From contig CACJSL010000002.1 of assembly GCA_902596065.1 (NCBI GenBank), positions 12,794 through 76,793 of the forward strand: DNA of 64,000 bases, given 5' to 3'. The notes under the pieces were generated by a model that was not told where the DNA came from, did not search any database, and saw only the letters and a list, made by a program, of their open reading frames with translations. Source of the stretch: an uncultured Alphaproteobacteria bacterium (GTDB taxonomy: Bacteria; Pseudomonadota; Alphaproteobacteria; HIMB59; GCA-002718135). Position 1 is the stretch's first letter. The number at the start of each line of letters is the position of its first letter. A program made the translations under genes and the position numbers. Of the stretch, positions 15,703 to 42,968 are shown one piece after another.

Positions 15703-16638
15703 ATGAAAAAAATGTTAGAATTAGCTAAAAAAACCTTTCAGAATGGTGGATTAGTTATCTTTCCTACTGAAACTGTTTATGGACTAGGTGGAGATGCAAC
15801 AAATGATATAGCACTTAAAAAGATATTTAAATTAAAAAAAAGACCTAGAAATAATCCCCTTATATGTCATTTTAAAAATATAAAAGAAGTAAAAAAAAAT
15901 TGTAAAATAAAAACCTTAGATGAAAAATTAATTAATTTATTTTGGCCAGGTCCTTTAACATTAATTTTAGAAAAGAAAAAAACAAGTTCAATTAGTCCAT
16001 TAGTGTCAAATAGTATGAATTTCATTGGATGCCGTATACCAAATAATAAAACTGCTAAAAGTTTGTTAAATCTACTTAATTTTCCTATAGCAGCTCCTAG
16101 TGCTAATATTGCAACAAAAATTTCTAGCACTCACCCTTTGCATTTACTAAAATATTTTAAGAAAAAAGTTTTTATTTTAGATGGCGGTAGATCTAAATTA
16201 GGACTTGAATCAACAGTCATAAAAACTTTTAATAAACATATAAAAATATTAAGATTAGGAAGTATTAGTATAGAAGAAATAAAATCTAAATTACCTAATG
16301 TGAAAATAATTATCTCAAATAATAAATCAATAATTTCTCCAGGAAATCAAAAAAAACATTATGCTCCTAACTTACCGATAAGAATAAATGTAAAAAAAAT
16401 GAATAAAAATGAAAGTTTGTTAAATTTTGGAAAAAATAATCTTAAATCTAATATTTGTGAATATAATCTCAGTACTTCAGGCAATTTAAAGGAAGCAAGC
16501 AAAAATTTTTTTTATTATTTGCATCTTCTTGATAATACTAAATGTTCTAAAATTGCTGTTGCACCTATACCTAATTATGGATTAGGAAAAACCATTAATG
16601 ATAAATTAAAAAGAGCCTCTTATAATAAAAATAATTAA
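15703..16638 (+). CDS. tsaC: L-threonylcarbamoyladenylate synthase (Sua5/YrdC/TsaC family, with Sua5 C-terminal domain)
   Basis: 311 aa with FPTETVYGLGGDATN, PLICH, WPGPLTLIL and APSAN blocks. Confidence 0.85.
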   Translation: MKKMLELAKKTFQNGGLVIFPTETVYGLGGDATNDIALKKIFKLKKRPRNNPLICHFKNIKEVKKNCKIKTLDEKLINLFWPGPLTLILEKKKTSSISPLVSNSMNFIGCRIPNNKTAKSLLNLLNFPIAAPSANIATKISSTHPLHLLKYFKKKVFILDGGRSKLGLESTVIKTFNKHIKILRLGSISIEEIKSKLPNVKIIISNNKSIISPGNQKKHYAPNLPIRINVKKMNKNESLLNFGKNNLKSNICEYNLSTSGNLKEASKNFFYYLHLLDNTKCSKIAVAPIPNYGLGKTINDKLKRASYNKNN

Positions 16639-17960
16639 AATTTATATTTTATTGAGTCTCTTAGTTTATAATAAAAAATAGCTGAAGAATAAATAGGTCT
16701 TCTAAAAAAATCTCCTCCTGGAATTATTAGATGTTTTATATTAGAGAATAAATCAAACCTTTCTGATTTTCCATCAATTTTTTCAGAAATCAATTTTCCT
16801 GCAAATGTGCTTAAGGCAAGTCCATGACCAGAATAACCTTGTGCATAAATTAATTTATTATTCATTAAAGTGCCAAAATGAGGAAGTCGATTAATAGTAA
16901 TAGCTAAAGTTCCACCCCAAGCAAAATCTATTTTGCAATCTTTAAGTGTAGGAAATACTTTATCCATTCTATTTTTAACAAAATTTTTAGAATTTTTCAC
17001 AAACATAGCAGAATAAGTTTCCCCACCTCCAAAAATCAATCTCCAATCTTCTGAAAATCGGTAATAATCTATTATAAATCTAGTATCACATACAGCATGA
17101 TTATTTTTTATAAGTTCTCTAGCTTTTTTTTCTCCTAAAGGTTCTGTTGCAATTACGTAATTATTTATAGGCATAAACCTTTGTCTAATATTGCTAAGTA
17201 AATTATCTAAATATCCATTACAAGCTACTACCACTCTTTTAGATTTAATTTTTTTTAGATTTGAATAGCAATACATAGAATCTTCATGCTCTATTATTTT
17301 AGTTATAGGTGTGTTTTCAAAAACTTTTATTTTTGTAGAGTTAATTTGATTTGCTATACCTATTAAAAATTTTAAAGGATTAATATGATAGCTGCCATAA
17401 TTAATTAATCCAGATTCATATATATTAGATTTAATTTCATCTTTTATTTGAATTTTGTTTAAAAGTTTTAAATTTGTATAATTATAAAATTTTTCTAGAT
17501 GATTTTTTTCTTCTTCAAAATATTTTATATCTTTTTTAAAGCATCCTGCACTAATTACGCCATTTTGTAAATTGCAATCAATTTTATATTTATTTATTAA
17601 ATCAATTGAATATTGAACTGCATCTAAGCCAAAATTCCAAAATTCCCTCGCAGTTTCAAATCCTAATTTCTTTTCAAGAAAAAATTGATCTTTTCGCATC
17701 CCATTACCTAACTGACCGCCATTTCTTCCTGAAGCGCCCCAGCCAATTAATCTTGATTCACATAAAGCTACAGAATATCCTTTATTGACTAAGTTCAACG
17801 CACTTGATACTCCTGTTAACCCTCCTCCAACAATACAAATATCAACCTCTAAATAATCTTCTAAAAAATCTTCTGAAGAATAGGGTTTTATAGAATGTCT
17901 ATAATAACTTTCTTTTTCATTATCATGTTGTTCATAGGTCTTTTTTTTGTTAAATAACAT
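16635..17960 (-). CDS. DAO-family FAD-dependent oxidoreductase (PuuB/PauB-like gamma-glutamyl-amine oxidase candidate)
   Basis: Dinucleotide fold DICIVGGGLTGVSSAL with a DAO-type C-terminus. I prefer the ATG at 17958-17960; the track start at 17975 is a TTG five codons upstream. Confidence 0.8.
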   Translation of the reverse strand: MLFNKKKTYEQHDNEKESYYRHSIKPYSSEDFLEDYLEVDICIVGGGLTGVSSALNLVNKGYSVALCESRLIGWGASGRNGGQLGNGMRKDQFFLEKKLGFETAREFWNFGLDAVQYSIDLINKYKIDCNLQNGVISAGCFKKDIKYFEEEKNHLEKFYNYTNLKLLNKIQIKDEIKSNIYESGLINYGSYHINPLKFLIGIANQINSTKIKVFENTPITKIIEHEDSMYCYSNLKKIKSKRVVVACNGYLDNLLSNIRQRFMPINNYVIATEPLGEKKARELIKNNHAVCDTRFIIDYYRFSEDWRLIFGGGETYSAMFVKNSKNFVKNRMDKVFPTLKDCKIDFAWGGTLAITINRLPHFGTLMNNKLIYAQGYSGHGLALSTFAGKLISEKIDGKSERFDLFSNIKHLIIPGGDFFRRPIYSSAIFYYKLRDSIKYKF

Positions 17961-17982
17961 AATAATATGAAACAATAATATC

Positions 17983-18009
17983 GTAATTCCTTTTCAAAAC
18001 AAGAATTAC
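17983..18009. promoter_or_regulatory. Inverted repeat GTAATTC-N13-GAATTAC in the divergent promoter gap
   Basis: GTAATTC (17983-17989) and its exact reverse complement GAATTAC (18003-18009) lie in the 73-bp gap between the divergently transcribed FAD oxidoreductase and GS-like genes. Confidence 0.3.
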
Positions 18010-18033
18010 ATATTTCAAATTTAAATAATCATT

Positions 18034-19398
18034 ATGTCTGAAAATTTTCAAAATTGGATTAAAGAGAATTCTATTACTGAGGTTGAGTGTTTAGTGCCTG
18101 ATTTAGGAGGTATTGCTAGAGGTAAAATTCTTCCTTCCAATAAATTTCTAAAAGGTATGGAGAATGACAGTCATAGATTGCCTCAATCAGTATTTATTCA
18201 AACAATTTCTGGGGGTTATGCGAATGAAGAAGAAGATCTCCCAAATGATGTCTACAACCCTACAGATATTGATGTCATTTTAAGGCCTGATTTTAATACA
18301 ATAAGAAATGTGCCATGGTATGAAGATCCTACAGCCCAAGTAATTTGTGATGCAGTGAATTTAAATGGCTCTACTGTAATAAACTCTAGTAGGAGTGTTC
18401 TTAAAAAAATAATTAAACAATTTAATGATTTAGGTTACCAACCAATAGTTTCGCCTGAAGTTGAATTTTATTTAGTAAAACCTAATCCAGACTCAGATTA
18501 TCCTCTAGAAGTTCCTATAGGGCAATCTGGAAGAGAAGAAAAAGGGAAACAAGCATTTGGAATTGATGCAGTTAATGAATTTGATAATCTATTTGAAGAT
18601 GTTTATAATTATTGTGAGCAACAAAATATAGAAATAGATACAATAAATCATGAAAGTGGTTCTGCCCAAATGGAAATTAATTTTCAACATGGGGATCCTT
18701 TAGAATTGGCGGACCAAGTATTTCTTTTTAAGAGAACTTTAAGACAAGCAGCTATTAAACATAAATTATATGCGACTTTTATGGCAAAGCCAATTGAGAA
18801 TCAACCTGGAAGCTCATTGCATTTACATCAATCATTGCTTAATGCCAAAAATAAAAAAAACGTTTTTTTTAATAATAAAAATACAATTTCTAATTTAATG
18901 AAAAATTATATTGGAGGATTGCAAGAATTCACCCCTAAATTAATGCCAATTCATGCTCCTAATATTAATTCATATAGACGTTTATTTGCTACTTGGGACG
19001 CTCCTAGAAATACAAACTGGGGCATAGGTAATAGATCATGTGGATTTCGAATTCCTTCAAATGAAGAATATAGTATGCGTATTGAAAATAGAATTTCTGG
19101 CTCTGATACCAACCCTTACTTAGTAATTGCTGCAAATCTAGCTGCTGGATATTTAGGAATTAAAAATAAAATTAAGCCATCTGCAGAAACCAAAAAAAGT
19201 GTATTTGGGCAAAAGCAAAGCTCATTACCTACAACAATGGAGGAAGCTATCTCCTTGTTTGAAAAAGATGAACAAATTAACGAAGTATTTAATCAAAAAT
19301 TTGTAAGAACTATAGCTGCAATTAGAAAAGTTGAAAATCAAGCATATCTTAAAGTTATTAGTTCTTGGGAGAGAGAATTTCTACTATTAAATGTCTAA
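18034..19398 (+). CDS. Glutamine synthetase-family gamma-glutamyl-amine ligase (PuuA/PauA/GmaS-like)
   Basis: 454 aa with a GS catalytic domain: EVEFYL, NHESGSAQMEINF, FMAKP...PGSSLHLHQSL, NRSCGFRIP, ENRISGSDTNPYL. Confidence 0.85.
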   Translation: MSENFQNWIKENSITEVECLVPDLGGIARGKILPSNKFLKGMENDSHRLPQSVFIQTISGGYANEEEDLPNDVYNPTDIDVILRPDFNTIRNVPWYEDPTAQVICDAVNLNGSTVINSSRSVLKKIIKQFNDLGYQPIVSPEVEFYLVKPNPDSDYPLEVPIGQSGREEKGKQAFGIDAVNEFDNLFEDVYNYCEQQNIEIDTINHESGSAQMEINFQHGDPLELADQVFLFKRTLRQAAIKHKLYATFMAKPIENQPGSSLHLHQSLLNAKNKKNVFFNNKNTISNLMKNYIGGLQEFTPKLMPIHAPNINSYRRLFATWDAPRNTNWGIGNRSCGFRIPSNEEYSMRIENRISGSDTNPYLVIAANLAAGYLGIKNKIKPSAETKKSVFGQKQSSLPTTMEEAISLFEKDEQINEVFNQKFVRTIAAIRKVENQAYLKVISSWEREFLLLNV

Positions 19399-20627
19399 GA
19401 TATAGAAATTTCTAAATGCTTTAAATACCAAGATTTAAATTTTTCTAGACCTTTTTCCATTTCAGATAAAGGACCTGGTACATATTTTTTTGACAGGACC
19501 CCTTTTTGATTATTTTCAATTATCTTTTTATCAGCAATAGTTGTCAAATCCCACATCCATGTCATTTCTTCTAAATTATAATCTTTGCCCTCCTCTGCAT
19601 CTTTGTGAACTAACCACATTAGTTCAACTTGTGTATGCAATGATGAAACAGGAATAAAGGTAAATAGTGTAGCAAAATCATTACACATAAGTAAACTATT
19701 AAAAGGTGAAGTTCCGACAGATGTATAACCACAATCATATTCTTTAAAATCTCCCATTAATTTTGAAACAGGTTTCCCAGATTTAGTTTCTGTAAACATT
19801 CCTTCTTTAAGTGGAGTTCTCTCGGCGCTTCTAGAATAATCATTAAATTCACTTTCAGAATATTCTCCAGTAACATGACCCATTTTTTTAACTTTTTCAT
19901 TCCAATTTTGTAAAATCTTATCAAATTTTTTTGATGAAGGGCCTGTATTACTTCCAGCTCCATAAGCAATGATATACTCTTTATCATGAACTTTACAATA
20001 TTCTGGATGTGCAGGTTGACAGTGATAACATTCATGAAAATTATCTAATGTAAGTTTCCAATTTCCATTTGTTGGATACATCTGCCTATGAGCAATTTTA
20101 GCATTAGATAAGCCATGTAATTTAATAAATTCTTTAGTAGGAGAAATAAATTCATTAAAATCATTTGGTTTATCTGACAAATTGATAAATATAAGTCCTT
20201 CAAAAATTTTTAAGTTACATTTATTTAAGGACCATTCTTCTTTGTTAAAATTATCATTCATCAACCTTGCAGACTTTATTGATCCATCTAAATTATAACT
20301 CCAAGCGTGGTAAGGACAAACTAATAATTTTTTATTTCCTGACTCTTCTAAACAAATATGTGAACCTCTATGTCGACAGACATTATAATGGGCATAAATT
20401 TTATTATCTTTATCACGAATAATTATTATTGATTCTTTCCCTATATTAAAAAGAAAGAAATCACCATATTTTGGAATTCTTGAGGTATGACCCACAAATA
20501 CCCATTGTTTAGAAAAAATATTTTTAATATCTAAATTAAAAATATAATCATCAACATAAAATTCTTGATCTAATGTGTAATTTGATTTCTGTTTCTTTAT
20601 TAAATTTTTTAAATTATCATTATTCAT
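19395..20627 (-). CDS. Rieske [2Fe-2S] non-heme-iron oxygenase, alpha subunit (GbcA/CntA/Stc2-like group)
   Basis: Rieske motif CRHRGSHIC...CPYHAW. Mononuclear-iron block NWKLTLDNFHECYHCQPAHP (E-x-Y-H-x4-H). I place the start at the ATG 20625-20627 (MNNDNL...); the track start 20663 is a TTG inside the palindrome. Confidence 0.85.
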   Translation of the reverse strand: MNNDNLKNLIKKQKSNYTLDQEFYVDDYIFNLDIKNIFSKQWVFVGHTSRIPKYGDFFLFNIGKESIIIIRDKDNKIYAHYNVCRHRGSHICLEESGNKKLLVCPYHAWSYNLDGSIKSARLMNDNFNKEEWSLNKCNLKIFEGLIFINLSDKPNDFNEFISPTKEFIKLHGLSNAKIAHRQMYPTNGNWKLTLDNFHECYHCQPAHPEYCKVHDKEYIIAYGAGSNTGPSSKKFDKILQNWNEKVKKMGHVTGEYSESEFNDYSRSAERTPLKEGMFTETKSGKPVSKLMGDFKEYDCGYTSVGTSPFNSLLMCNDFATLFTFIPVSSLHTQVELMWLVHKDAEEGKDYNLEEMTWMWDLTTIADKKIIENNQKGVLSKKYVPGPLSEMEKGLEKFKSWYLKHLEISIS

Positions 20628-20646
20628 TAATATACATATAATATTG

Positions 20647-20664
20647 ATTGAATATCCATTCAAT
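20647..20664. promoter_or_regulatory. Operator/promoter palindrome copy a: A-TTGAAT-atcc-ATTCAA-T
   Basis: Exact inverted repeat, core 20648-20663, centred in the 55-bp gap between the Rieske gene (ATG 20627, minus strand) and the FAD oxidoreductase (ATG 20683). It ends 19 nt before the + strand ATG; TATAAG lies at 20671-20676. Confidence 0.55.
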
Positions 20665-20682
20665 GAAATTTATAAGTATCTA

Positions 20683-22017
20683 ATGGCAGGTTTATACCAT
20701 CCGGATATATATAAATTTGAAAAACCTATAAATAGTTATTGGGAAACAACTGCTGATACAAAAAATCAATATAACAAATTGAAAGAAGATATTCATACAA
20801 ATATATTGGTTATTGGAGGTGGTTATACAGGCATATCTTGTGCTTTAAGTTTATCAAAAAAATATAATGAAGAAGTTGTCATAGTTGAAGCAGGTCATAT
20901 TGGTTGGGGATCCTCAGCGAGAAACGCAGGTTTTTGCTGTATACCTCCTGCGAAAATGTCCGTATCAAAAATGTTTAAGAAATATGGAAAAGAAGAAACT
21001 AAGAAATTTTTTCAAAATACAATTGAAGGATCAAATTTTACAAAAGATTTAATATCAGAATACAATATTGATTGTGACTTAACTGGAAATTGTAATTATG
21101 AAGTTGCCCCACATCCTGACTACTTTCAATCCATTAAAAAAGAAGCAGATGTGTATAAAAAAGAATTTGGAATAGAAACAGAAATATATTCTCAATCAGA
21201 ATTTAATGAAATAGGACATACAGGTGAAGAACAATTTGGGGCTTTTTCTTATAAACCTGGATTTGCAATTAATCCTTTAAAATTTTTACTTGGATTAGCT
21301 AAAGAAGCAAAAAAGTCTGGTGTTAAAATTTATCAAAAAAGCAAAGTTAGCAAAATAGAAAAAAAGAATGGAAAGTATAATATTATAATAAATGAAAACA
21401 AAATAACATCGAATAAAATAGTTATGGCCACTAATGGATTTTATAGAGATGACTTATTTCCAAAACTTAATAATAGAATACTTCCTGTAATATCTAATAT
21501 TATTATTACAAAACCACTTACAAATGATCAAATTATGGCTCACAATTTTGTTACACACAACCCTATCTTAAATAATAGAAATTTACTTTTTTATTATAGA
21601 TTATTAAAAGATAATCGTTTCTTATTTGGTGCTAGAGGTGATTTAGTTGGAAGTGAAGAGTCTTCTTTAATAAAATCAAAAAAAATGGAACAACAAATGA
21701 AAAAAGTTTTTCCTGAATGGAACAATGTTGAAATTGATTATCATTGGCGAGGTCTTGTGGCCGTAACTACAAAATTTACTCCTTCAATTGGAAAGTTAGA
21801 TGATGATGAAATTTACTATAGTTTTGGTTATCAAGCAAATGGGGTTAATACTGCCCCTTGGTCTGGTAGTAAACTTGCAAATTTAATTGTATCAAATAGT
21901 AAAGAACTTAATATTTCAAAATTTTATCAAGGATTACCAAAAAAGTTTCCTTTTCCAAAATTAAGACTATTTTATCTTAAGATGTATTTAGCATATCATT
22001 CATTAAGAGATAAATAA
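20683..22017 (+). CDS. DAO-family FAD-dependent oxidoreductase (second PuuB/PauB-like paralogue)
   Basis: NILVIGGGYTGISCAL dinucleotide fold of DAO type. I prefer the ATG at 20683 (MAGLYHPDIY...). The track TTG at 20644 would overlap the divergent gene and the palindrome. Confidence 0.8.
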   Translation: MAGLYHPDIYKFEKPINSYWETTADTKNQYNKLKEDIHTNILVIGGGYTGISCALSLSKKYNEEVVIVEAGHIGWGSSARNAGFCCIPPAKMSVSKMFKKYGKEETKKFFQNTIEGSNFTKDLISEYNIDCDLTGNCNYEVAPHPDYFQSIKKEADVYKKEFGIETEIYSQSEFNEIGHTGEEQFGAFSYKPGFAINPLKFLLGLAKEAKKSGVKIYQKSKVSKIEKKNGKYNIIINENKITSNKIVMATNGFYRDDLFPKLNNRILPVISNIIITKPLTNDQIMAHNFVTHNPILNNRNLLFYYRLLKDNRFLFGARGDLVGSEESSLIKSKKMEQQMKKVFPEWNNVEIDYHWRGLVAVTTKFTPSIGKLDDDEIYYSFGYQANGVNTAPWSGSKLANLIVSNSKELNISKFYQGLPKKFPFPKLRLFYLKMYLAYHSLRDK

Positions 22018-27215: not shown

Positions 27216-27231
27216 TTGAATGTCTATTTAA
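27216..27231. promoter_or_regulatory. Operator/promoter palindrome copy d: TTGAAT-gtct-ATTtAA (one mismatch)
   Basis: It lies in the 58-bp gap between the GS-like gene (minus strand, ATG 27192) and the amidase (ATG 27251). Extended arms TTAATTGAAT / ATTTAATTAA match 9 of 10. It ends 19 nt before the amidase ATG. Confidence 0.42.
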
Positions 27232-28803: not shown

Positions 28804-29892
28804 ATGCCTAAATACTATGAAACTAAAAATTTTTTAGTTAAAACTTTAGGAGTGGCAATATTAACGGTTTTTATGGCCGTATTATTTTCCACTTCAAAGG
28901 TTTTTGCTGATGAGCCTGGAAGTGTTTTTCTTTGGGGCGGATATGATGATGATGGTCTGTTTGGATCATATGTAGAAGAACATGGATCACCTGAATACTC
29001 AACATTTGGTGATGCTGAAGAAGGTTTACAAAAATTAAAAGCTGGTTTTGAAGTTGATTTAGCTTGGCCATGCCAAGGTGAAATAGCTCGTTGGGTAAGA
29101 GCTGGAGTACTTGAACCATTGGACACTTCTCGAATAGATAACTGGGATGATATGTTCCCTGAAGTCAGAGATCTACCAAGCGGTATTGTGGATGGTAAGA
29201 ACTATTTTGCACCTATCGATTGGGGTGATACAACTTTATTTTACATGGCTGATCGAGTTCCGTGGATGAATGCTGATAATGAAAGTTTTGATCTAATGGA
29301 AGATCCAAGAGTAAAAGGTAAAGTTGGTATATTAGACTCTGCTGCTGACTCATTATTTTTAATGATGCATCATCTTGGAATTGATATCAGAGAAAAGGAT
29401 CAATTAACTAAAGCTGCTATTGATAAAGGTATCAATAAGTTTCGTGAAATGAGAGATAACGGACAAATTCGTGCGTTCTTCGGAGACACTTCTTCAATGG
29501 TAGAGGCGTTAGGTAACGAAGAAATAGATGTAGCTCTTGGTTGGAACGAAATTGCATGGAATGCTGGAGCGAAAATGATGCAACCTGCTAATGGAACAAT
29601 GACTTGGGCTTGCGGACTTGCAATTGTTAAAGGTGCAGACCTTGATAAAGCATATGCAATGATTAACGGAGCTACTAGTCCAGAAACTTCAGCTTACTTA
29701 CTTAGTGAGTGGGGTTATGGCCATTCAAACAAGAAAGGTTTTAGCACCATCACTGCTGATGAATTAGCTGAGCGTGGAGTAGCATCTAATCCTGCAGAAC
29801 ACCTTTCAAATGGAATGTTCTCTGTGATGCCTTCAGATGAAGTAACTGATTATATGGAAGCTCAATGGGCTGAAATGGTTGCTGGCGGTTAA
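28804..29892 (+). CDS. Periplasmic substrate-binding protein, PotD/PotF (family 1) type
   Basis: 362 aa with a signal peptide (...AVLFSTSKVFA/DEP) and a mature domain of the polyamine-type SBP pattern. Purine-rich SD (GGGGGT) precedes the ATG. Visibly richer in G+C and poorer in Lys/Asn/Ile codons than its neighbours. Confidence 0.8.
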   Translation: MPKYYETKNFLVKTLGVAILTVFMAVLFSTSKVFADEPGSVFLWGGYDDDGLFGSYVEEHGSPEYSTFGDAEEGLQKLKAGFEVDLAWPCQGEIARWVRAGVLEPLDTSRIDNWDDMFPEVRDLPSGIVDGKNYFAPIDWGDTTLFYMADRVPWMNADNESFDLMEDPRVKGKVGILDSAADSLFLMMHHLGIDIREKDQLTKAAIDKGINKFREMRDNGQIRAFFGDTSSMVEALGNEEIDVALGWNEIAWNAGAKMMQPANGTMTWACGLAIVKGADLDKAYAMINGATSPETSAYLLSEWGYGHSNKKGFSTITADELAERGVASNPAEHLSNGMFSVMPSDEVTDYMEAQWAEMVAGG

Positions 29893-29912
29893 TCAAAGAT
29901 TAGTTCAATATC

Positions 29913-31024: not shown

Positions 31025-31030
31025 AATTTA

Positions 31031-31840: not shown

Positions 31841-31842
31841 TT

Positions 31843-33930: not shown

Positions 33931-34584
33931 CTATAAAATATTTTTAAATTGTTTTGGAAAATTTGACTTAATAAATTCAAAGCAAATTTTTTTTGACTGT
34001 ACTTTATTAAAAGTATCAGGATCTTCTAATTGATCTAACCATAAACCCATTATTAAAGCTTGAAAACCTCTAGCTATGTTTTTTTCAGATAATTTAACTT
34101 TTTCTTTTTTTATTAAATCTAAAAAGATATTTTCAGTAATTGATTGATAATATAAATCTCGCTCTTTACATATTTGATGATAAGCTGGTTTGTATTTGAT
34201 TTCGCTAAAAAATGTAAACCAGACAGCTATTTTTTCTCTGGTACATATTTTTTTACTAAAATCATTTTTTATAATTCCTATTATTTTTTTTCTAGGATCA
34301 TTCCCAGCTTTAGAAATACTCTTTTGAAATGAAAGCAGATATTCATTTGAAATAAATTTTAAAGTCTCAATTAATAGTAGTTCTTTACTTTTAAAATGGA
34401 AATTTACTATCCCTTGAGATAATCCTGCTCCTTGAGAGACATCTTGCATTGTTAATTGGTGTATTCCTTTTTTTGATAAATTCTTAATGGTTGAAGATAT
34501 CAATTTTAAATTACTATTTTTTTTATTTTCTAATCTAATATTTCTGTGTCTCATAAAATTATAAAAACAATGATAGTTTTTCAT
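33931..34584 (-). CDS. TetR-family transcriptional repressor, BetI-like subgroup
   Basis: N-terminal HTH (TMQDVSQGAGLSQGIVNFHFKSKELL). The C-terminal blocks VWFTFFSE...P and GFQALIMGLWLD resemble, from memory, E. coli BetI (AWLAFWASS...P, LAALIDGLWLR). An alternative start is the ATG at 34554. Confidence 0.8.
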   Translation of the reverse strand: MKNYHCFYNFMRHRNIRLENKKNSNLKLISSTIKNLSKKGIHQLTMQDVSQGAGLSQGIVNFHFKSKELLLIETLKFISNEYLLSFQKSISKAGNDPRKKIIGIIKNDFSKKICTREKIAVWFTFFSEIKYKPAYHQICKERDLYYQSITENIFLDLIKKEKVKLSEKNIARGFQALIMGLWLDQLEDPDTFNKVQSKKICFEFIKSNFPKQFKNIL

Positions 34585-34612: not shown

Positions 34613-34628
34613 TTGAATGGTCATTCAA
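34613..34628. promoter_or_regulatory. Operator/promoter palindrome copy b: TTGAAT-ggtc-ATTCAA (exact; extended TTGAATG-gt-CATTCAA)
   Basis: It lies in the 63-bp gap between the TetR gene (minus strand) and the divergent flavoprotein operon. It ends 19 nt before the ATG at 34648; TATAAG lies at 34634-34639. Confidence 0.6.
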
Positions 34629-34647: not shown

Positions 34648-36276
34648 ATGAACAAATCTAAATATGATGTTGCAATTATTGGTGGTGGTCATAATGGGCT
34701 CACCACAGCATGTTATTTAGCTAAAGCTGGACTAAAAGTAGTTGTTGTAGAAAAACATGATTATGTGGGGGGAGCAGCTGTAAGCAGAGAGCTTCATCCA
34801 GGTTGGACATATTCTAACTGTTCATACGTCTGTAGTTTGCTTAGACCTGAAATTTTTAGAGATTTAGAATTATCTAAACACGGTTTACAAATTATACCTT
34901 ACGAAGGTAGTGCAAGCATGCTTAATGATGGGAGATTTTACGCACATTACCAAGATCATGATTTAACTTATAGATCTATTGCTCAATTTTCCAAAAAAGA
35001 TGCTGAAGCCTATGATAGATTTGGAAAAGATGTGATGCGACAGTGTAAAATTATTAAACCTCTTTTAAAGATGACACCTCCTGATCCTACTTCATTTTCT
35101 CCAAAGGATATAATGGGTTTATTTGAATTTGCTAAATATTTTGCTGCAAAAGATGAGTTAGGAGGCTTAGGTGAGAAAGAAATATACGATACAATTCGTT
35201 TTTGGACAATGAGTGTTAGGGATTATCTCGAAGAATATTTTGAATCAGAAATTGTAAAAGTGCATTTAGCAGGGTCTGCTATCATTGGAACAGCTTTAGG
35301 CCCTTATTCTCCAGGCTCTGCATATGTATTGCTACATCATTATATGGGAGAAGTAGATGGTACTGTTGGAGCGTGGGGGTACGCTAGAGGAGGTATGGGT
35401 TCAATTACAAAAGCTATGGCATCTTCTTTTAAATCAAAAAATGGAGAAATTAAATCTGGTTCGCCAGTCACAAAAATTCTTATTAAAAATAATAAAAGTT
35501 ATGGTCTTGTTCTTGAAAATGGAGATGAAATTTATGCTGATAAAATAGTTTCAAACCTTGATGTCAAAAGAACCTTTTTAAAAGTTGTTGAGGAAAAAGA
35601 ATTACCCAATGATTTTTACAAAGCAGTAAAAAATTTTAAAATCAGAGGATCTTCAGGAAAGTTAAATATTGCTCTTGATGATCTACCTATTTGGAAAAGT
35701 ATTCCAGAGGGTGATCCAGCTGGAACAGGTGACTTACATATAACTCAGAATATTGAAGAGATGGAGGGAGCATATGATGATTGGAAAGATGGTAAGTGGT
35801 CTCAATTTCCATATGTTGATATGTGTATTCCAAGTATAAATGATCCCACTATGGCCCCTCAAGGAAAACACTATATGTCTGTTTTTATTCAATATGTTCC
35901 TTACAATTTAGCAGATGGAGGATGGACAGAAGAAAAGCGTCTTGAATTTGGCAAACATGTGATGGGTAGGATTGGAAATTATTCAACAAACTTCAATGAT
36001 ATCATTAATCATGCAGAAATTAGAACTCCTAAAGAATTAGAAGCTGAAGTTGGTTTAACAGAAGGAAATATTTTTCAAGGTGAGCTTACTATGGATCAGT
36101 TAATGTTTAACCGCCCTGTACCTGGTTATGCTCAATATAAAACGCCTATAAAAAATCTTTATATGTGTGGTTCTAGCACTCATCCTGGCGGAGGAGTAAT
36201 GGGAGCACCTGGAGCAAATGCTGCAAGAGAAATATTAAAAGATTTAAACAAAAAGATATCAACACATTATATATGA
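34648..36276 (+). CDS. CrtI/phytoene-desaturase-family (flavin amine-oxidase superfamily) FAD-dependent oxidoreductase, paralogue 1
   Basis: 542 aa. N-terminal YDVAIIGGGHNGLTTACYLAKAGLKVVVVEKHDYVGGAA and C-terminal LYMCGSSTHPGGGVMGAPGANAA. Confidence 0.8.
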   Translation: MNKSKYDVAIIGGGHNGLTTACYLAKAGLKVVVVEKHDYVGGAAVSRELHPGWTYSNCSYVCSLLRPEIFRDLELSKHGLQIIPYEGSASMLNDGRFYAHYQDHDLTYRSIAQFSKKDAEAYDRFGKDVMRQCKIIKPLLKMTPPDPTSFSPKDIMGLFEFAKYFAAKDELGGLGEKEIYDTIRFWTMSVRDYLEEYFESEIVKVHLAGSAIIGTALGPYSPGSAYVLLHHYMGEVDGTVGAWGYARGGMGSITKAMASSFKSKNGEIKSGSPVTKILIKNNKSYGLVLENGDEIYADKIVSNLDVKRTFLKVVEEKELPNDFYKAVKNFKIRGSSGKLNIALDDLPIWKSIPEGDPAGTGDLHITQNIEEMEGAYDDWKDGKWSQFPYVDMCIPSINDPTMAPQGKHYMSVFIQYVPYNLADGGWTEEKRLEFGKHVMGRIGNYSTNFNDIINHAEIRTPKELEAEVGLTEGNIFQGELTMDQLMFNRPVPGYAQYKTPIKNLYMCGSSTHPGGGVMGAPGANAAREILKDLNKKISTHYI

Positions 36277-37739
36277 AAAAATTTGATGTAATAATAATTG
36301 GAGGTGGACATAATGGTTTAGTTGCATCTTCATATCTAGCCAAAAAAGGTAAAAAAGTTTTGGTAATTGAAAAAAATGAACATGTTGGAGGATTAGCGGA
36401 ATATGCAAATTCACTGAGTTGTATTTCTCCTATCATTAAAAAAGAATTAAATATCAATATTCCTAATATTAAAGATACAGATTACATTATATCTCTTGAA
36501 GATAATCAAAATCATACAATCTTAGAGGATAAAAACGGTAAGCTATCTTTTGTAAAAACGAATGCTGATGAAGATGATCAGAAAACATTTTTATCAATTA
36601 TTAATAACTACAAATTATTTTCAAAAACTCTTGGATCTTTTATGCATCAAAAACCCCCAAGAGTTAAATCAGGAAAAAGGTCAGACTTATTTCAATTAAT
36701 GTCCATGGGATGGAAAATTAGAAAATTAGGTAAAAAAAATATGCGAGAGCTATTAAGAGTAATTGGTTTAAATATTGCTGATGATTTAGAGGATAATTTA
36801 AATAACGATAACTTAAAGGGTTTATTGTCCCATGAATCAGTTTTAGGCTCAAACTTGGGTCCTAGATCTCCTGGCTCAATATTGACTTTACTTTATAAGC
36901 AAGCAATCAATGATAATATTTTTAATTTGAAGAAGATAGAAGTTACAAACTATATTAATCAATTAGAAGATTGTTGTAAAAAAAATACAGTAGAAATAAT
37001 TAAATCCTCTGAAGTTAGAAAAATAGTAACTAAAAACAACTCTGTTACTGGTATTCAATTAAATAATAATGAGGTTATAGAATCAGCATGCGTTATGTCT
37101 AATGCTGACCCCAAAACAACTTACTTAAATTTATTAGGCGCAGAAATATTAGATACTGATTTTATTAGAAGAATTAAAAATTTTAGAAACAAGGGAAATG
37201 TTGCTAAACTTGAATTAGTTTTAGAAAATGAGATTAATATTAAAAATATTGATAAGAAAATGTATGGAAAATTTATTTACGCCCCAAATATAAAATACAT
37301 AGAACATGCATTTAATGCCAATAAGTATAATCATTATTCTAAAAATCCATGTTTGGAATTTTATGTTAATGATAACACTTTGTCAGCAAACATTTACTAT
37401 GTTCCATATTTAATTAATGCTAGTCATCAAGAAAATGAAATAATTGAAAAGTGTGTTGCTGTTTTAAGTAAATTTATTCCAGATATGAATATAAGAAAAC
37501 AAGAACTTATTACTCCAAATCAAATGGAGGAAAAATATAATATATCTGGTGGTCATTGGCATCATGGTGATTTAGAAATAGATCAATTACTAATGATGAG
37601 ACCTTTTTATGGATCTTCTCAATATTCAACTCCTGTTAACGGTTTATATTTATGCAGTGCTGGCACTCATCCTGGAGGAGGTTTAACTGGTATCAACGGT
37701 CTTAATGCAGCAAAAAAAATAGTAGAGGACTTAAAATAA
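36273..37739 (+). CDS. CrtI/phytoene-desaturase-family FAD-dependent oxidoreductase, paralogue 2
   Basis: 488 aa with FDVIIIGGGHNGLVASSYLAKKGKKVLVIEKNEHVGG and LYLCSAGTHPGGGLTGINGLNAA. Its ATG overlaps the upstream stop (ATGA). Confidence 0.75.
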   Translation: MKKFDVIIIGGGHNGLVASSYLAKKGKKVLVIEKNEHVGGLAEYANSLSCISPIIKKELNINIPNIKDTDYIISLEDNQNHTILEDKNGKLSFVKTNADEDDQKTFLSIINNYKLFSKTLGSFMHQKPPRVKSGKRSDLFQLMSMGWKIRKLGKKNMRELLRVIGLNIADDLEDNLNNDNLKGLLSHESVLGSNLGPRSPGSILTLLYKQAINDNIFNLKKIEVTNYINQLEDCCKKNTVEIIKSSEVRKIVTKNNSVTGIQLNNNEVIESACVMSNADPKTTYLNLLGAEILDTDFIRRIKNFRNKGNVAKLELVLENEINIKNIDKKMYGKFIYAPNIKYIEHAFNANKYNHYSKNPCLEFYVNDNTLSANIYYVPYLINASHQENEIIEKCVAVLSKFIPDMNIRKQELITPNQMEEKYNISGGHWHHGDLEIDQLLMMRPFYGSSQYSTPVNGLYLCSAGTHPGGGLTGINGLNAAKKIVEDLK

Positions 37740-38941
37740 TGAATAAAGAAAAAATTTCATATAAAAAACCTCTATTAGAAACACCTTTTCATAAAAGAAC
37801 ATCTGAGCATTGTTATGCAAATGATTGGTATAGATGGGCTGGTTACAAAGTTGCCAAAGAATACTCCTCAACTGAACTTGAATATACTTCAATGAGAAAC
37901 ACTGCAGGAGTAATAGATATAACTCCAATGCATAAATATGAAATTAAAGGTAAAGATGCAAAAAAATTTATTAATAAATTAATTACAAAAAATATTACTA
38001 ATATTCAATCTAATCAAGTAGCCTACGGCATATGGTGCAATGAAGATGGAATGGTGATTGATGATGGAACAATATTTTGCTTAAACGAAAATCATTATAG
38101 AATTTTTTGCGCTGAGAGAAATCTTAATTGGTTTTGTGATACAGCTACTGGATTTAATGTAACTATTGAAGATATAAGCTCATCAATTGCTGCTTTAGCT
38201 TTTCAAGGTCCTTTATCTTGTAAAATTTTAAATCTTTTAAAAGTAGAAAATATAGAAAACCTTAAACCTTTTCATTTTGATAATTACAAACTTGAAAATC
38301 AAAATGTCACAATTTCAAGAACAGGCTTTTCTGGAGATTTAGGTTATGAAATATGGTGTGACCCTTCTCAGGCTATCGATGTATGGGACAGCTTATTTAA
38401 GTTTAACAGAGATTATAAAGTACTTGCTGCTGGAATGAACTCACTTGAGATGGTGAGAATTGAAGCAGGATTTATCCAACCAAATGCAGATTTTATGTCT
38501 GCAGAACAGGCTTTAAGACCAAATAGAATGAGAAACCCATATGAATTAGGTTTAGGTTGGTTAGTAAATCTAGATAAAGAGTATTTTACTGGGAAACAGG
38601 CTTTAATTAGACACAAAGAAAAGGGGCCTGAAAAAAAACTTGTAGGATTGGATGTTGAGGGAGATAAGCCTGCTGTGGGATCTGTCCTCTATGATAATAG
38701 TAAGAAAAATATAGCCAAAGAAATTGGTATAGTGACAGCAGCAATGTGGTCCCCTGTTCTTAAATCTAATATTGCAATTGGATTTGTTAACAAAGAATAT
38801 TATAAGTTAGGATCTAATGTTTATGCTGAAATTTACCATCCAGAAGAATTGGATTATAGAAAAATTTGGGCTGAATGCAAAGTGGTAAAAAAGCAATTTT
38901 TTAACAATCCAAGAAGGAATGCTATTCCTGCATTTATATAG
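37739..38941 (+). CDS. GcvT-family aminomethyltransferase-like folate-binding protein
   Basis: 400 aa. TPFHKRT, AGVIDITPMHKYEIKGKDA, LAFQGP, ISRTGFSGDLGYEIW and LRIEAGF are typical GcvT/DmdA-family blocks. Its ATG overlaps the upstream stop (TAATG). Confidence 0.85.
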   Translation: MNKEKISYKKPLLETPFHKRTSEHCYANDWYRWAGYKVAKEYSSTELEYTSMRNTAGVIDITPMHKYEIKGKDAKKFINKLITKNITNIQSNQVAYGIWCNEDGMVIDDGTIFCLNENHYRIFCAERNLNWFCDTATGFNVTIEDISSSIAALAFQGPLSCKILNLLKVENIENLKPFHFDNYKLENQNVTISRTGFSGDLGYEIWCDPSQAIDVWDSLFKFNRDYKVLAAGMNSLEMVRIEAGFIQPNADFMSAEQALRPNRMRNPYELGLGWLVNLDKEYFTGKQALIRHKEKGPEKKLVGLDVEGDKPAVGSVLYDNSKKNIAKEIGIVTAAMWSPVLKSNIAIGFVNKEYYKLGSNVYAEIYHPEELDYRKIWAECKVVKKQFFNNPRRNAIPAFI

Positions 38942-42947: not shown

Positions 42948-42968
42948 TTGAATGCTCATTCAGTGAAT
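42948..42968. promoter_or_regulatory. Operator/promoter palindrome copy c: TTGAAT-gctc-ATTCAg, plus a third half-site (ATTCA-g-TGAAT)
   Basis: It lies in the 56-bp gap between the crotonase stop (42926) and the aminotransferase ATG (42983). The 16-bp core 42948-42963 ends 19 nt before the ATG. An overlapping second palindrome spans 42958-42968. Confidence 0.5.

What the first reader, a model, noticed from the sequence alone, without database searches (positions are those of the whole stretch)
16635..22017. GS-like ligase, orphan Rieske oxygenase and two DAO flavoproteins in alternating orientation: gamma-glutamyl tagging of an amine before oxygenation?
Gene order is FAD oxidoreductase (-), GS-like (+), Rieske alpha subunit (-), FAD oxidoreductase (+). 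There are two divergent promoter gaps and a 4-nt convergent overlap between the GS-like and Rieske genes.

The Rieske protein has CxH...CxxH and the NWK...E-x-Y-H-x4-H iron block. As I recall, this block is shared with the GbcA/CntA/Stc2-type group that attacks N-methyl or quaternary amines. No ferredoxin, reductase or beta subunit is encoded anywhere in the window.

Established precedents for a GS-like enzyme feeding an oxygenase:
- Aniline dioxygenase: a GS-like AtdA1/TdnQ makes gamma-glutamylanilide for a Rieske oxygenase.
- Isopropylamine catabolism: IpuC followed by a monooxygenase.
- Puu/Pau polyamine pathways: a GS-like ligase followed by a DAO-type oxidase.

Inference: an amine is gamma-glutamylated and then oxidised or demethylated while tagged. 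Operator copy (a) places the Rieske gene and the second flavoprotein in the same regulon as the demethylase/CoA island.
Basis: partly seen in the sequence, partly recalled or inferred. Interest (0 to 1): 0.65.

Follow-up and report, generated by a model that had tools for sequence, protein, structure and literature searches.

The report
Two unrelated amine-catabolism gene pairs
The four genes are real, but they form two independent units that merely abut: a putrescine-pathway-type glutamyl-ligase/oxidase pair, and a betaine-demethylase-type oxygenase with a flavoprotein that belong to a repressor-controlled, apparently undescribed methylated-amine breakdown module shared with the abundant ocean bacterium SAR11.

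Summary
DAO1(-), GS-like(+), Rieske alpha(-) and DAO2(+) lie in alternating orientation, with two divergent gaps and a 4-nt convergent overlap. No reductase, ferredoxin or beta subunit is encoded in the 64 kb. The window comes from the HIMB59/AEGEAN-169 clade.

The central inference, gamma-glutamyl tagging before Rieske oxygenation, is not supported.
- GS1-DAO1 is a PuuA/PuuB-type pair. It has its own conserved inverted repeat, and it occurs alone in Azospirillum and Sinorhizobium.
- Rieske-DAO2 share a 55-bp gap centred on TTGAAT-N4-ATTCAA. The same palindrome fronts the BetI-like TetR/CrtI-like operon and the aminotransferase operon. It is invariant in 26 HIMB59 gaps.
- In Pelagibacteraceae one palindrome-headed run reads CrtI_a-CrtI_b-GcvT-aminotransferase-Rieske-DAO2-PotBCA.
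- Rieske relatives in Bacteroidota, Rhodobacterales and Rhizobiaceae keep the CrtI-like/GcvT partners (plus the transporter in the alphaproteobacterial plasmids) but have no GS-like gene (0 of 53 non-HIMB59 loci).

The Rieske protein is Stc2/GbcA-type. The module's "PotD" keeps the aromatic cage but has lost three of four polyamine-binding acidic residues, in line with published glycine betaine/DMSP binding by SAR11 PotD.

Best model: stepwise N-demethylation of a methylated onium osmolyte. The substrate is unknown.

The parts
16635..17960 (-). DAO1: FAD amine oxidase of the PuuB (gamma-glutamylputrescine oxidase) family
   Evidence: Pfam DAO, E 6e-52. It is 38% identical to E. coli PuuB over the full length, including the C-terminal YYxLRD tail. 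It is 37% identical to the Azospirillum protein and 32% to the S. meliloti protein that sit next to GS1 orthologues.
17983..18009 (.). Inverted repeat GTAATTC-N13-GAATTAC in the 73-bp DAO1|GS1 divergent gap. It is a candidate operator and differs from the TetR palindrome.
   Evidence: Read directly from the sequence. A core ATTCTTG...GAAT is kept in the same gap in about 25 HIMB59 loci. The TGAAT-N4-ATTCA motif is absent from this gap.
18034..19398 (+). GS1: GS-like ATP-dependent gamma-glutamyl-amine ligase, PuuA type. The amine substrate is unknown.
   Evidence: Gln-synt_C, E 1.7e-100, below the GlnA and type III GS cut-offs. The metal, ATP and glutamate ligands are conserved. D50, S53, Y179, N264 and E327 are replaced as in PuuA. 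It is 31% identical to PuuA. Orthologues at 47-51% identity are paired with a PuuB-like oxidase in Azospirillum and Sinorhizobium.
19395..20627 (-). Rieske non-haem-iron oxygenase alpha subunit, Stc2/GbcA-type (C-N cleaving, N-demethylating group). No local reductase.
   Evidence: Rieske plus Ring_hydroxyl_A domains. The NCBIfam GbcA model scores 332 bits, below its 670 cut-off. PDB relatives 3N0Q and Stc2 3VCA match at E 1e-79 and 1e-77 over the full length, whereas CntA and aromatic dioxygenases match only the Rieske domain. The cluster and iron ligands are invariant in the family alignment.
20648..20663 (.). TetR (BetI-like) operator TTGAATATCCATTCAA at the centre of the 55-bp Rieske|DAO2 divergent gap
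   Evidence: The pattern is enriched in the window: 8 strand matches against 0.94 expected, and 3 exact core matches against 0.54 expected. It is present in the same gap in all 25 HIMB59 loci that carry both genes. It lies inside a block, TATAAATTTCATTGAATGnnTATTCAATCAATATTATA, that is nearly invariant across 18 distinct gap sequences.
20683..22017 (+). DAO2: divergent member of the PuuB/AmaA family of FAD amine oxidases, co-regulated with the Rieske gene
   Evidence: Pfam DAO, E 7e-52. It is 28% identical to PuuB over the full length. It lies immediately downstream of the Rieske orthologue in the Pelagibacteraceae operon in 15 of 18 loci.
33931..34584 (-). BetI-like TetR repressor, the presumed regulator of the palindrome. 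It is the first gene of the run TetR-ACAD-PotB-PotC-PotA.
   Evidence: NCBIfam BetI model, 102 bits, below cut-off. Homologues (28-39% identical) sit next to the CrtI_a homologue in SAR11, Parasedimentitalea, Fuscovulum, Rhizobium and Shinella.
34613..34628 (.). Perfect palindrome TTGAATGGTCATTCAA in the TetR|CrtI_a gap
   Evidence: The same motif, TGAATAATCATTCA, lies in the TetR|CrtI_a gap of 14 Pelagibacteraceae loci.
34648..38941 (+). CrtI_a, CrtI_b (two amine-oxidase/phytoene-desaturase-like flavoproteins) and a GcvT-like folate-binding protein. These are the partners most often found with the Rieske gene across lineages.
   Evidence: They lie beside the Rieske relative in Bacteroidota (CrtI-like in 19 of 24 loci, GcvT-like in 10 of 24) and Pelagibacteraceae (16 of 18), within about 5-7 kb of it in three gammaproteobacterial loci, and near Rieske-type genes on the four alphaproteobacterial plasmids.
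42948..42963 (.). Third palindrome copy, TTGAATGCTCATTCAG, upstream of the aminotransferase-MFS-GNAT genes
   Evidence: A copy lies in the GcvT|aminotransferase gap of SAR11 locus L068.
42983..44359 (+). Omega-aminotransferase (AT3) of the regulon
   Evidence: NCBIfam NF005447, 664 bits, above its cut-off. Orthologues at 47-57% identity lie in the module in SAR11, Parasedimentitalea, Rhizobium and Shinella.
28804..29892 (+). PotD/PotF-family binding protein whose pocket looks suited to onium compounds, not polyamines
   Evidence: The aromatic residues W34, Y37, W229, W255 and Y293 are kept. E36 is replaced by G, D168 by S, and D257 by C. Versions 69-95% identical flank the SAR11 operon. SAR11 potD (SAR11_1336) binds glycine betaine with Kd 2 nM, and also DMSP and other osmolytes (PMC11485210).
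25807..28726 (.). GS2 (-), the closer PuuA homologue, and an amidase-signature enzyme (+), divergent, with a conserved half-site ACATTCAA at 27216-27231
   Evidence: GS2 is 37% identical to PuuA and lacks the ammonium site. The half-site is kept in 5 HIMB59 loci. GS2 and amidase orthologues flank the SAR11 module.

Best explanation
The 5.4-kb stretch holds two independent divergent gene pairs that abut tail to tail in a streamlined HIMB59-clade genome.

Pair 1, DAO1 and GS1, is a Puu/Pau-type module. GS1 uses ATP to join glutamate to an amine. The amine is unknown; a diamine or small alkylamine is likely. DAO1 then oxidises the gamma-glutamyl amine. The pair has its own cis-element.

Pair 2, Rieske and DAO2, belongs to a dispersed regulon of a BetI-like TetR repressor that binds TTGAAT-N4-ATTCAA. 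The regulon comprises:
- TetR-ACAD-PotBCA;
- CrtI_a-CrtI_b-GcvT-ACAD-CoA ligase-enoyl-CoA hydratase;
- aminotransferase-MFS-GNAT;
- Rieske|DAO2;
- possibly GS2|amidase-SBP.

Inferred mechanism:
1. A methylated onium compound (betaine-type osmolyte) is imported by the PotD-like ABC system.
2. The Rieske oxygenase hydroxylates an N-methyl or N-alkyl carbon. This releases formaldehyde or an aldehyde and yields a less substituted amine, as Stc2 and GbcA do.
3. The CrtI-like flavoprotein pair, with the GcvT-like protein, removes a further methyl group as methylene-tetrahydrofolate.
4. DAO2 oxidises the remaining secondary or primary amine. In some relatives an OYE/DgcA-type enzyme may take this step.
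5. The omega-aminotransferase removes the nitrogen.

Shown here: gene identities, catalytic residues, the operator and its conservation, and the synteny across lineages. Inferred: the substrate class, the order of steps, and the electron donor for the Rieske centre.
For: Separate cis-elements:
- The palindrome is found only in the Rieske|DAO2, TetR|CrtI_a and ECH|AT3 gaps.
- It is conserved in 25 of 25 HIMB59 loci that carry both Rieske and DAO2, and in 14 SAR11 loci.
- A different repeat is conserved in the DAO1|GS1 gap.

Synteny:
- The Pelagibacteraceae run TetR< >CrtI_a CrtI_b GcvT AT3 Rieske DAO2 PotBCA <SBP <amidase unites exactly the window's operator-marked genes.
- In Bacteroidota the Rieske gene lies beside CrtI-like genes in 19 of 24 loci and a GcvT-like gene in 10 of 24, with no GS-like or DAO gene in any.
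- Plasmids of cultured Parasedimentitalea, Fuscovulum, Rhizobium and Shinella carry TetR, SBP, ABC transporter, CrtI_a/b, GcvT, aminotransferase and Rieske-type genes, but no GS-like gene.
- The closest cultured Rieske homologue, from Yoonia (42% identical), sits with an OYE/DgcA-like enzyme, a DAO-GcvT fusion, an aminotransferase and a TetR gene.

Rieske family.

Transporter pocket and published SAR11 PotD specificity; PMC11485210.

GS1-DAO1 autonomy and PuuA/PuuB likeness.

Counts by lineage.
Against: - No substrate has been tested, and the SBP's orthology to SAR11_1336 is inferred, not shown (one search gave no accession link).
- DAO2 belongs to the PuuB family, whose characterised member acts on a gamma-glutamyl amine. 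A GS-like gene (GS2) also accompanies the module in SAR11 and HIMB59. Gamma-glutamylation may therefore still be part of the same pathway in these lineages.
- SAR11 is thought to demethylate glycine betaine with BHMT, so the true substrate may be another betaine or a non-betaine amine.
- Agmatine-deiminase-like or agmatinase-like genes recur next to this Rieske subfamily. The model does not explain this.
- In Rhizobium, Shinella and Fuscovulum the module's Rieske genes belong to other subfamilies, about 26-30% identical and in most cases matching only the Rieske domain.
- No reductase was found near the gene, so the activity lacks a known electron source.
Confidence: 0.6

Rival explanations
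1. GS1 gamma-glutamylates an amine. The tagged amide is then the substrate of the Rieske oxygenase and of the DAO flavoproteins. This would be an aniline-dioxygenase-like or Ipu-like logic.
For: - GS1 and the Rieske gene are adjacent in 31 of 32 HIMB59 loci.
- Both DAO proteins are PuuB-family.
- GS-like enzymes lacking the ammonium site are present.
- In SAR11 a GS-like gene (GS2) follows a Rieske-family paralogue.
Against: - The genes are convergent and are separated by different conserved operators.
- An OYE-type gene or an aminotransferase is inserted between them in some genomes.
- The adjacency is restricted to one clade in which the flanking housekeeping genes are equally syntenic.
- GS1 is near the Rieske gene in 0 of 53 loci outside HIMB59.
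- GS1-DAO1 stands alone in Azospirillum and Sinorhizobium.
- The Rieske protein groups with enzymes that act on free betaines.
- There is no GATase-like partner, beta subunit or reductase.
Confidence: 0.1
2. A hybrid pathway with the order reversed. The TetR regulon first demethylates the imported compound (Rieske, then CrtI/GcvT). The resulting primary amine is then gamma-glutamylated by GS2, oxidised by DAO2 and released by the amidase. In this reading gamma-glutamylation is part of the regulon, but it acts after oxygenation and uses GS2 rather than GS1.
For: - DAO2 is PuuB-family and shares the operator with the Rieske gene.
- GS2 is the closer PuuA homologue, at 37% identity.
- The GS2|amidase gap keeps a half-site.
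- GS2 and the amidase flank the module in SAR11 and HIMB59.
- The amidase could stand in for the missing PuuD.
Against: - Only a half-site is present, not a full palindrome.
- GS2 in the window lies next to aguA and aguB, which fits ordinary putrescine catabolism.
- GS2, DAO2 and the amidase are absent from the module in Bacteroidota, Rhodobacterales and Rhizobiaceae.
- The window has no aldehyde dehydrogenase.
Confidence: 0.2
3. All the genes serve polyamine or guanidino-amine nitrogen scavenging. In this reading the Rieske oxygenase and the CrtI-like amine-oxidase-like flavoproteins cleave secondary amines such as spermidine or norspermidine, or methylated or guanidino derivatives. That would fill the spermidine-catabolism gap noted for SAR11.
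For: - The transporter is Pot-type, aguA and aguB are nearby, and GS/DAO genes of Puu type are present.
- SAR11 metabolises spermidine without a known enzyme (PMC8437039).
- Agmatine-deiminase-like or agmatinase genes recur beside this Rieske subfamily.
- CntA shows that the family can cleave larger N-alkyl groups.
Against: - The SBP has lost three of the four acidic polyamine ligands.
- SAR11 PotD was shown to bind betaine and DMSP, not polyamines as annotated.
- The GcvT-like partner points to one-carbon (N-methyl) chemistry.
- The regulator is BetI-like.
Confidence: 0.1

Closest known systems
Stachydrine demethylase Stc2 (PDB 3VCA) and glycine betaine monooxygenase GbcA/BmoA, with their downstream demethylases (StcD or DgcA, OYE-type; DMGDH/Sox, DAO plus GcvT)
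   Same: - The alignment runs the full length at E about 1e-78, and GbcA is the best NCBIfam model.
- The Rieske ligands, the two iron-binding histidines with the aligned aspartate, and the bridging glutamate are all present.
- No beta subunit is present.
- The gene is accompanied by flavin and GcvT-type partners that mirror the GbcA -> DgcA -> Sox logic.
   Different: - Identity is only about 36-42%, and the GbcA equivalog cut-off is not reached (332 bits against 670).
- No GbcB/PDR-type reductase lies nearby.
- The second-step partner is a pair of CrtI-like flavoproteins with a free-standing GcvT-like protein.
- The pathway ends in an omega-aminotransferase, which implies a product other than glycine or proline.
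- Import is through a PotD-family system, not a ProU/OpuA system.
E. coli Puu pathway (PuuA gamma-glutamylputrescine synthetase, PuuB oxidase)
   Same: - GS1 and GS2 share PuuA's loss of the ammonium site while keeping the catalytic core.
- DAO1 is 38% identical to PuuB over the full length.
- The ligase-oxidase pairing is conserved in other Alphaproteobacteria.
   Different: - The window has no PuuC aldehyde dehydrogenase and no PuuD hydrolase.
- GS1 is only 31% identical to PuuA and falls below the NCBIfam gamma-glutamylputrescine synthetase cut-off (199 bits against 650).
- The amine substrate is unknown.
Aniline dioxygenase (AtdA1-A5 / TdnQTA1A2B)
   Same: A GS-like gene and a Rieske alpha gene lie side by side.
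   Different: - The genes are not co-transcribed; they are convergent.
- There is no GATase-like subunit, beta subunit or reductase.
- The Rieske catalytic domain matches Stc2 and GbcA. Aromatic dioxygenase models match only the first ~220 residues, essentially the Rieske domain.
BetI, the TetR-family repressor of choline/betaine genes
   Same: It is the best NCBIfam match. The operator is palindromic, lies in a divergent promoter, and includes an autoregulatory position.
   Different: The score is below the BetI cut-off (102 bits against 201). The regulon content is different, and the ligand is unknown.

Membership tests
Rieske non-haem-iron oxygenase alpha subunit, N-dealkylating group (Stc2/GbcA/CntA) | Rieske [2Fe-2S] ligands CxH...CxxH | tested here: met
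   C84, H86, C104 and H107 are invariant in the 7-sequence alignment and align with Stc2.
Rieske non-haem-iron oxygenase alpha subunit, N-dealkylating group (Stc2/GbcA/CntA) | Mononuclear iron site of two histidines and one carboxylate, plus a bridging acidic residue | tested here: met
   E199-x2-H202-x4-H207 and D366 are invariant and align with the Stc2 segment ECYHCSSNHP...DEDREIVETNQ.
Rieske non-haem-iron oxygenase alpha subunit, N-dealkylating group (Stc2/GbcA/CntA) | Full-length similarity to characterised members rather than to ring hydroxylases | tested here: met
   3N0Q and Stc2 cover residues 4-408 at E about 1e-78. CntA and the aromatic dioxygenases match only residues ~17-211.
Glycine betaine monooxygenase GbcA (NCBIfam equivalog NF058607) | Score above the curated cut-off | tested here: not met
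   332 bits against a cut-off of 670. The SAR11 and Bacteroidota orthologues score 297 and 325 bits.
Two-component Rieske monooxygenase system | A cognate reductase (GbcB/CntB/PDR type) encoded with the oxygenase | tested here: not met
   None is present in the 64-kb window. tblastn with a PDR/VanB-type query found none in 94 further loci (1.65 Mb), which include the 85 Rieske loci. The only hit was the query's own Mesorhizobium locus, where it lies next to a 42%-identical Rieske homologue. The rest of the genome could not be searched.
Two-component Rieske monooxygenase system | N-demethylation or C-N cleavage activity | not testable with these tools
   This needs an enzyme assay.
True glutamine synthetase (GlnA) | Ammonium-binding residues D50, S53, Y179, N264, E327, and a score above the GlnA cut-off | tested here: not met
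   Neither protein keeps any of the five residues. GS1 has P, V, gap, P, D and GS2 has C, T, gap, T, F, against P, V, gap, A, Y in PuuA. GS1 scores 247 bits and GS2 200 bits against a cut-off of 429.
PuuA-type gamma-glutamyl-amine ligase | GS catalytic core kept (E129, E131, E212, E220, H269, H271, R321, R339, R344, E357, R359) while the ammonium site is lost | tested here: met
   All eleven residues are conserved in GS1 and GS2. Identity to PuuA is 31% for GS1 and 37% for GS2. The NCBIfam equivalog for gamma-glutamylputrescine synthetase is not reached (199 and 176 bits against 650), so the substrate need not be putrescine.
Puu pathway (complete) | PuuC aldehyde dehydrogenase and PuuD gamma-glutamyl-GABA hydrolase present | tested here: not met
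   No aldehyde dehydrogenase and no class-I glutamine amidotransferase-type hydrolase were found among the window's ORFs. An amidase-signature enzyme at 27251-28726 might substitute for PuuD.
Aniline-dioxygenase-type gamma-glutamyl-dependent Rieske system | GS-like, GATase-like, alpha, beta and reductase genes in one operon | tested here: not met
   Only a GS-like gene and an alpha gene are present. They are convergent and have separate operators.
TetR/BetI-type regulon | A palindromic operator repeated in the promoter regions of the target genes and conserved across species | tested here: met
   Binding by the TetR protein itself was not tested.

The most novel reading that the evidence does not exclude
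The Rieske-DAO2 pair is part of an undescribed, repressor-controlled pathway for complete N-demethylation of a non-glycine betaine or other methylated onium osmolyte. The pathway would comprise a Rieske oxygenase, a heteromeric CrtI-like flavoprotein with a GcvT-like folate protein, a DAO- or OYE-type oxidase, and an omega-aminotransferase. It would be physically coupled, in SAR11 and HIMB59, to the highly expressed "PotD" osmolyte transporter. It would run without a dedicated reductase. One possibility is that the Rieske centre is reduced by the co-regulated flavoproteins that oxidise the downstream intermediates.
Probability: 0.3. Interest if true: 0.75.

Novelty: new variant of a known kind. 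Interest (0 to 1): 0.5.

Why it matters
SAR11 and HIMB59 are among the most abundant bacteria in the surface ocean. [quoted passage not shown] If the genes wired to that transporter (Rieske, CrtI-like pair, GcvT, aminotransferase, DAO2) form an oxygen-dependent demethylation route, several things follow:
- there would be a second fate for methylated osmolytes besides BHMT;
- the route would be a new source of formaldehyde and methylene-folate for energy;
- the genes would serve as markers for interpreting ocean metatranscriptomes.

The case also shows that conserved adjacency inside one streamlined clade is weak evidence of function. Operators and cross-phylum synteny split the apparent four-gene cluster into two units.

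Tried and rejected
- Word-indexed homologue search with GS1. It returned only HIMB59 sequences at least 86% identical, so it gave no distant context. The plasmid tblastn search was used instead.
- Exact-sequence cluster look-up of the SBPs. It gave only generic "spermidine/putrescine-binding" names and no link to SAR11_1336. The supplements of the Nature paper are not held. The orthology therefore remains an inference.
- PDB searches with CrtI_a and DAO2. They found only remote flavoproteins (phytoene desaturase, glycine oxidase, sarcosine oxidase), which says nothing about function.
- Promoter and terminator scan. It found 29 promoter-like sites against 38.6 expected in this AT-rich DNA, so it is not informative. 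No convincing terminator lies between the convergent genes.
- Rfam scan. The only match is a tRNA.
- Nine literature searches and several full-text look-ups. None found a description of the Rieske/CrtI-like/GcvT module.
- Rejected idea: the module's 404-aa FAD oxidoreductase in Rhizobium SL42 is a DAO2 equivalent. It has no BLAST similarity to DAO2.
- Rejected idea: the SAR11 gene next to GS2 is a second complete Rieske oxygenase. It lacks the Rieske domain.

Full report
**Origin and anatomy**

The window has about 28% G+C. Its Rieske gene is 98% identical to that of a HIMB59-clade MAG and 77-95% identical to those of many "MarineAlpha5"/AG single-cell genomes. The DNA is therefore from the HIMB59/AEGEAN-169 lineage, formerly SAR11 subclade V.

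| Gene | Coordinates | Strand |
|---|---|---|
| DAO1 | 16635-17960 | - |
| GS1 | 18034-19398 | + |
| Rieske alpha | 19395-20627 | - |
| DAO2 | 20683-22017 | + |

- The convergent GS1/Rieske overlap is the tetranucleotide CTAA, which carries both stop codons.
- The divergent gaps are 73 bp and 55 bp.
- Nearly all ORFs of at least 90 aa in the 64 kb were scanned directly. The two not scanned, 10152-11498 and 11488-12225, are identified by homology as GltX and NadE. None of the ORFs is a ferredoxin, a reductase or an oxygenase beta subunit.
- Unannotated small ORFs add only a BolA-like peptide.
- tblastn with a PDR/VanB-type reductase finds nothing in the window.

**The proteins**

The Rieske protein:
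- It has the cluster ligands C84, H86, C104 and H107.
- It has the iron site E199-x2-H202-x4-H207 plus D366.
- Its full-length relatives among solved structures are 3N0Q (Ruegeria) and the stachydrine demethylase Stc2, at E about 1e-78. CntA and the aromatic ring dioxygenases match only the Rieske domain.
- The best NCBIfam model is GbcA, but at 332 bits against a cut-off of 670.
- Conclusion: it belongs to the N-dealkylating group but is not an orthologue of any characterised member.

The GS-like proteins:
- GS1 and GS2 (25807-27192) keep all metal, ATP and glutamate ligands of glutamine synthetase.
- The ammonium-site residues D50, S53, Y179, N264 and E327 are replaced, just as in E. coli PuuA.
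- Both fall below the GlnA and type III GS cut-offs.
- GS2 is 37% identical to PuuA and GS1 is 31% identical.

The DAO proteins:
- DAO1 is 38% identical to PuuB end to end.
- DAO2 is 28% identical to PuuB.

**Two cis-elements**

The Rieske|DAO2 gap is centred on TTGAATATCCATTCAA. The window has four copies or near-copies:
- 20648-20663, in the Rieske|DAO2 gap;
- 34613-34628, between a BetI-like TetR gene and the first CrtI-like gene;
- 42948-42963, upstream of the omega-aminotransferase;
- 27216-27231, a one-mismatch copy between GS2 and an amidase.

The core TGAAT-N4-ATTCA occurs 3 times against 0.54 expected, and every copy is intergenic.

In the related loci the motif sits in the DAO2|Rieske gap in all 25 HIMB59 loci that have both genes. 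It sits in the TetR|CrtI_a gap in 14 Pelagibacteraceae loci. Across 18 distinct HIMB59 gap sequences the block TATAAATTTCATTGAATGnnTATTCAATCAATATTATA is nearly invariant, although the flanking proteins are only 70-85% identical.

The DAO1|GS1 gap lacks this motif. It carries a different conserved repeat instead: GTAATTC-N13-GAATTAC in the window, with the core ATTCTTG...GAAT kept across the clade.

The GS2|amidase site is conserved only as a half-site.

**Synteny across lineages**

- HIMB59: the order DAO2< Rieske> GS1< DAO1> is conserved, with GS1 within two genes of the Rieske gene in 31 of 32 loci. The housekeeping genes next door (sua5, parA, glmU, the DAHP synthase gene, nadE, gltX) are conserved in order too. 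The adjacency therefore carries little functional information.
- Within the clade, other genes are sometimes inserted between the Rieske gene and GS1. One is a 678-aa OYE/DgcA/StcD-type flavoprotein. Another is an aminotransferase.
- Pelagibacteraceae (Rieske 48-53% identical): one co-directional run, headed by the palindrome, reads CrtI_a-CrtI_b-GcvT-aminotransferase-Rieske-DAO2-PotB-PotC-PotA. On the opposite strand lie the SBP and the amidase, followed by a Rieske-domain-less paralogue and GS2.
- Marinoscillaceae/Flammeovirgaceae (Bacteroidota, 63-69% identical): the Rieske gene sits next to CrtI-like genes in 19 of 24 loci and a GcvT-like gene in 10 of 24. An NhaC-type transporter gene, annotated in one locus (L032), and housekeeping genes flank it. 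No GS-like or DAO gene is present.
- Outside HIMB59, GS1 is near the Rieske gene in 0 of 53 loci.
- The same core (TetR, PotD-like SBP, ABC transporter, CrtI_a at about 60% identity, CrtI_b, GcvT, aminotransferase at about 50%, and one or two Rieske alpha genes, sometimes with the OYE-type enzyme and a GNAT) lies on plasmids of cultured Parasedimentitalea marina, Fuscovulum ytuae, Rhizobium sp. SL42 and Shinella zoogloeoides. None of these has a GS-like gene.
- The closest cultured Rieske homologues are 42% identical. In Yoonia the gene sits with TetR, an agmatinase, an OYE-type enzyme, a DAO-GcvT fusion (DMGDH-like) and an aminotransferase. In Mesorhizobium it sits directly after a PDR/VanB reductase.

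**GS1-DAO1 is an autonomous pair**

- In Azospirillum lipoferum the GS1 orthologue (50% identical) is divergent from a DAO1 homologue (37% identical), between smc and a ubiA-family gene.
- On S. meliloti pSymB a 47% GS1 orthologue is followed by a 32% DAO1 homologue.
- Neither locus has a Rieske gene.

**The substrate class**

The module's SBP is annotated as spermidine/putrescine-binding. When aligned to E. coli PotD and PotF it keeps the aromatic residues W34, Y37, W229, W255 and Y293. It replaces three of the four acidic ligands: E36 by G, D168 by S or N, and D257 by C. The pattern is the same in HIMB59, SAR11, Parasedimentitalea, Rhizobium and Shinella.

Clifton et al. (Nature 2024, PMC11485210) showed that SAR11_1336 (potD) binds glycine betaine with Kd 2 nM, as well as DMSP and other osmolytes, rather than polyamines as annotated. 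The published accounts read here describe a single PotABCD system in SAR11 (PMC8437039, PMC10308909), and the SBP beside this operon in Pelagibacteraceae is 69-95% identical to the window's. Orthology is therefore likely, but I could not prove it.

Four features point to a methylated onium or betaine-type compound rather than to a gamma-glutamyl amide:
- the BetI-like regulator;
- the Stc2/GbcA-type oxygenase;
- the folate-binding GcvT-like protein;
- OYE/DgcA-type or DAO-GcvT-type partners in relatives.

The terminal omega-aminotransferase suggests that the fully demethylated product is an omega-amino compound, not glycine or proline. In the window the same operon also holds an acyl-CoA dehydrogenase, an ADP-forming CoA ligase and a CaiD-like hydratase, with a BKACE gene and a thioesterase gene nearby. 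That would fit a butyrobetaine- or carnitine-like substrate, but this is conjecture.

**Verdict**

The four genes are two independent modules.
- GS1-DAO1 is an ordinary Puu/Pau-type ligase/oxidase pair with an unknown amine substrate.
- Rieske-DAO2 is the detached end of a TetR regulon that forms one operon in SAR11.
- The proposed hand-over from GS1 to the Rieske enzyme has no support and faces several independent counter-indications.
- A weaker version cannot be excluded. In it, gamma-glutamylation by GS2, DAO2 and the amidase acts downstream of demethylation in SAR11 and HIMB59.

**What remains unexplained**

- The electron donor of the Rieske centre is unknown. No PDR-type reductase lies near the gene in any of 85 Rieske loci or in the window.
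- Agmatine-deiminase-like or agmatinase-like genes recur next to this Rieske subfamily.
- The role of the CrtI-like pair is unknown.

I found no description of this module in the searchable literature.

Noticed in passing
window 28804-32727, compared with L054-L070 and L013-L021: PotB, PotC, PotA and the SBP of this HIMB59 window are 85-99% identical to those of true Pelagibacteraceae, whereas neighbouring enzymes are only 40-73% identical. Within HIMB59 two transporter allele types exist: about 95% identical to the window in L016, L021 and L027, and 49-68% in L013 and L014. This suggests recent lateral exchange of the osmolyte transporter between the two orders.
   Followed up: partly
L054 18210-19304, and equivalents in L055-L074: In Pelagibacteraceae the gene just upstream of GS2 is a paralogue of the Rieske oxygenase catalytic domain. 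It has lost the Rieske [2Fe-2S] domain: there is no CxH...CxxH motif, and Pfam finds only Ring_hydroxyl_A.
   Followed up: partly
L030-L052, L072, L078, L079 (Marinoscillaceae/Flammeovirgaceae MAGs and SAGs): The HIMB59 Rieske protein is closer to Bacteroidota versions (63-69% identical) than to SAR11 versions (48-53%). This implies cross-phylum transfer of the Rieske/CrtI-like/GcvT cassette among streamlined marine bacteria.
   Followed up: no
L013 11245-13281, also L015 and L051; L088 20325-22364; L094 12333-14384: A 678-683-aa OYE plus FAD/NAD-domain flavoprotein (architecture of DgcA, StcD and trimethylamine dehydrogenase) lies immediately downstream of the Rieske gene in some HIMB59 genomes. 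It recurs in the module in Parasedimentitalea (47% identical) and Yoonia. It is absent from the window.
   Followed up: partly
L001, L011, L026-L029, L031, L053; L094 11288-12325; L080 11309-12256: Extra agmatine-deiminase-like paralogues (34-37% identical to the window's AguA) sit directly beside Rieske/DAO2 in several HIMB59 genomes. In Yoonia and a Dongiaceae MAG an agmatinase/arginase-family gene takes that position. The link between this Rieske subfamily and guanidino-group hydrolases is unexplained.
   Followed up: no
window 17983-18009: An inverted repeat, GTAATTC-N13-GAATTAC, lies in the DAO1|GS1 gap and is conserved across HIMB59 as ATTCTTG...GAAT. No regulator gene is adjacent, so the binding factor is unknown.
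   Followed up: partly
window 54508-63674: More betaine-related genes lie at the 3' end of the window: a homocysteine S-methyltransferase (BHMT-like), a GMC oxidoreductase (choline-dehydrogenase-like) and an OpuAC-type ABC transporter. The window as a whole is rich in quaternary-amine functions.
   Followed up: no
window 46561-48976: [quoted passage not shown] A BKACE gene also lies near the module on the Parasedimentitalea plasmid. This may hint at a carnitine- or dehydrocarnitine-like branch.
   Followed up: no
L090 16397-16648, L091 16386-16631, L082-L084: A small conserved ORF of 81-84 aa with no Pfam match follows the GcvT-like gene in Rhizobiaceae and gammaproteobacterial versions of the module. 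It may be a small subunit, as SoxD is in sarcosine oxidase. It is absent from the window.
   Followed up: no
window 2564-2645: A single tRNA gene on the minus strand is the only Rfam match in the window.
   Followed up: no
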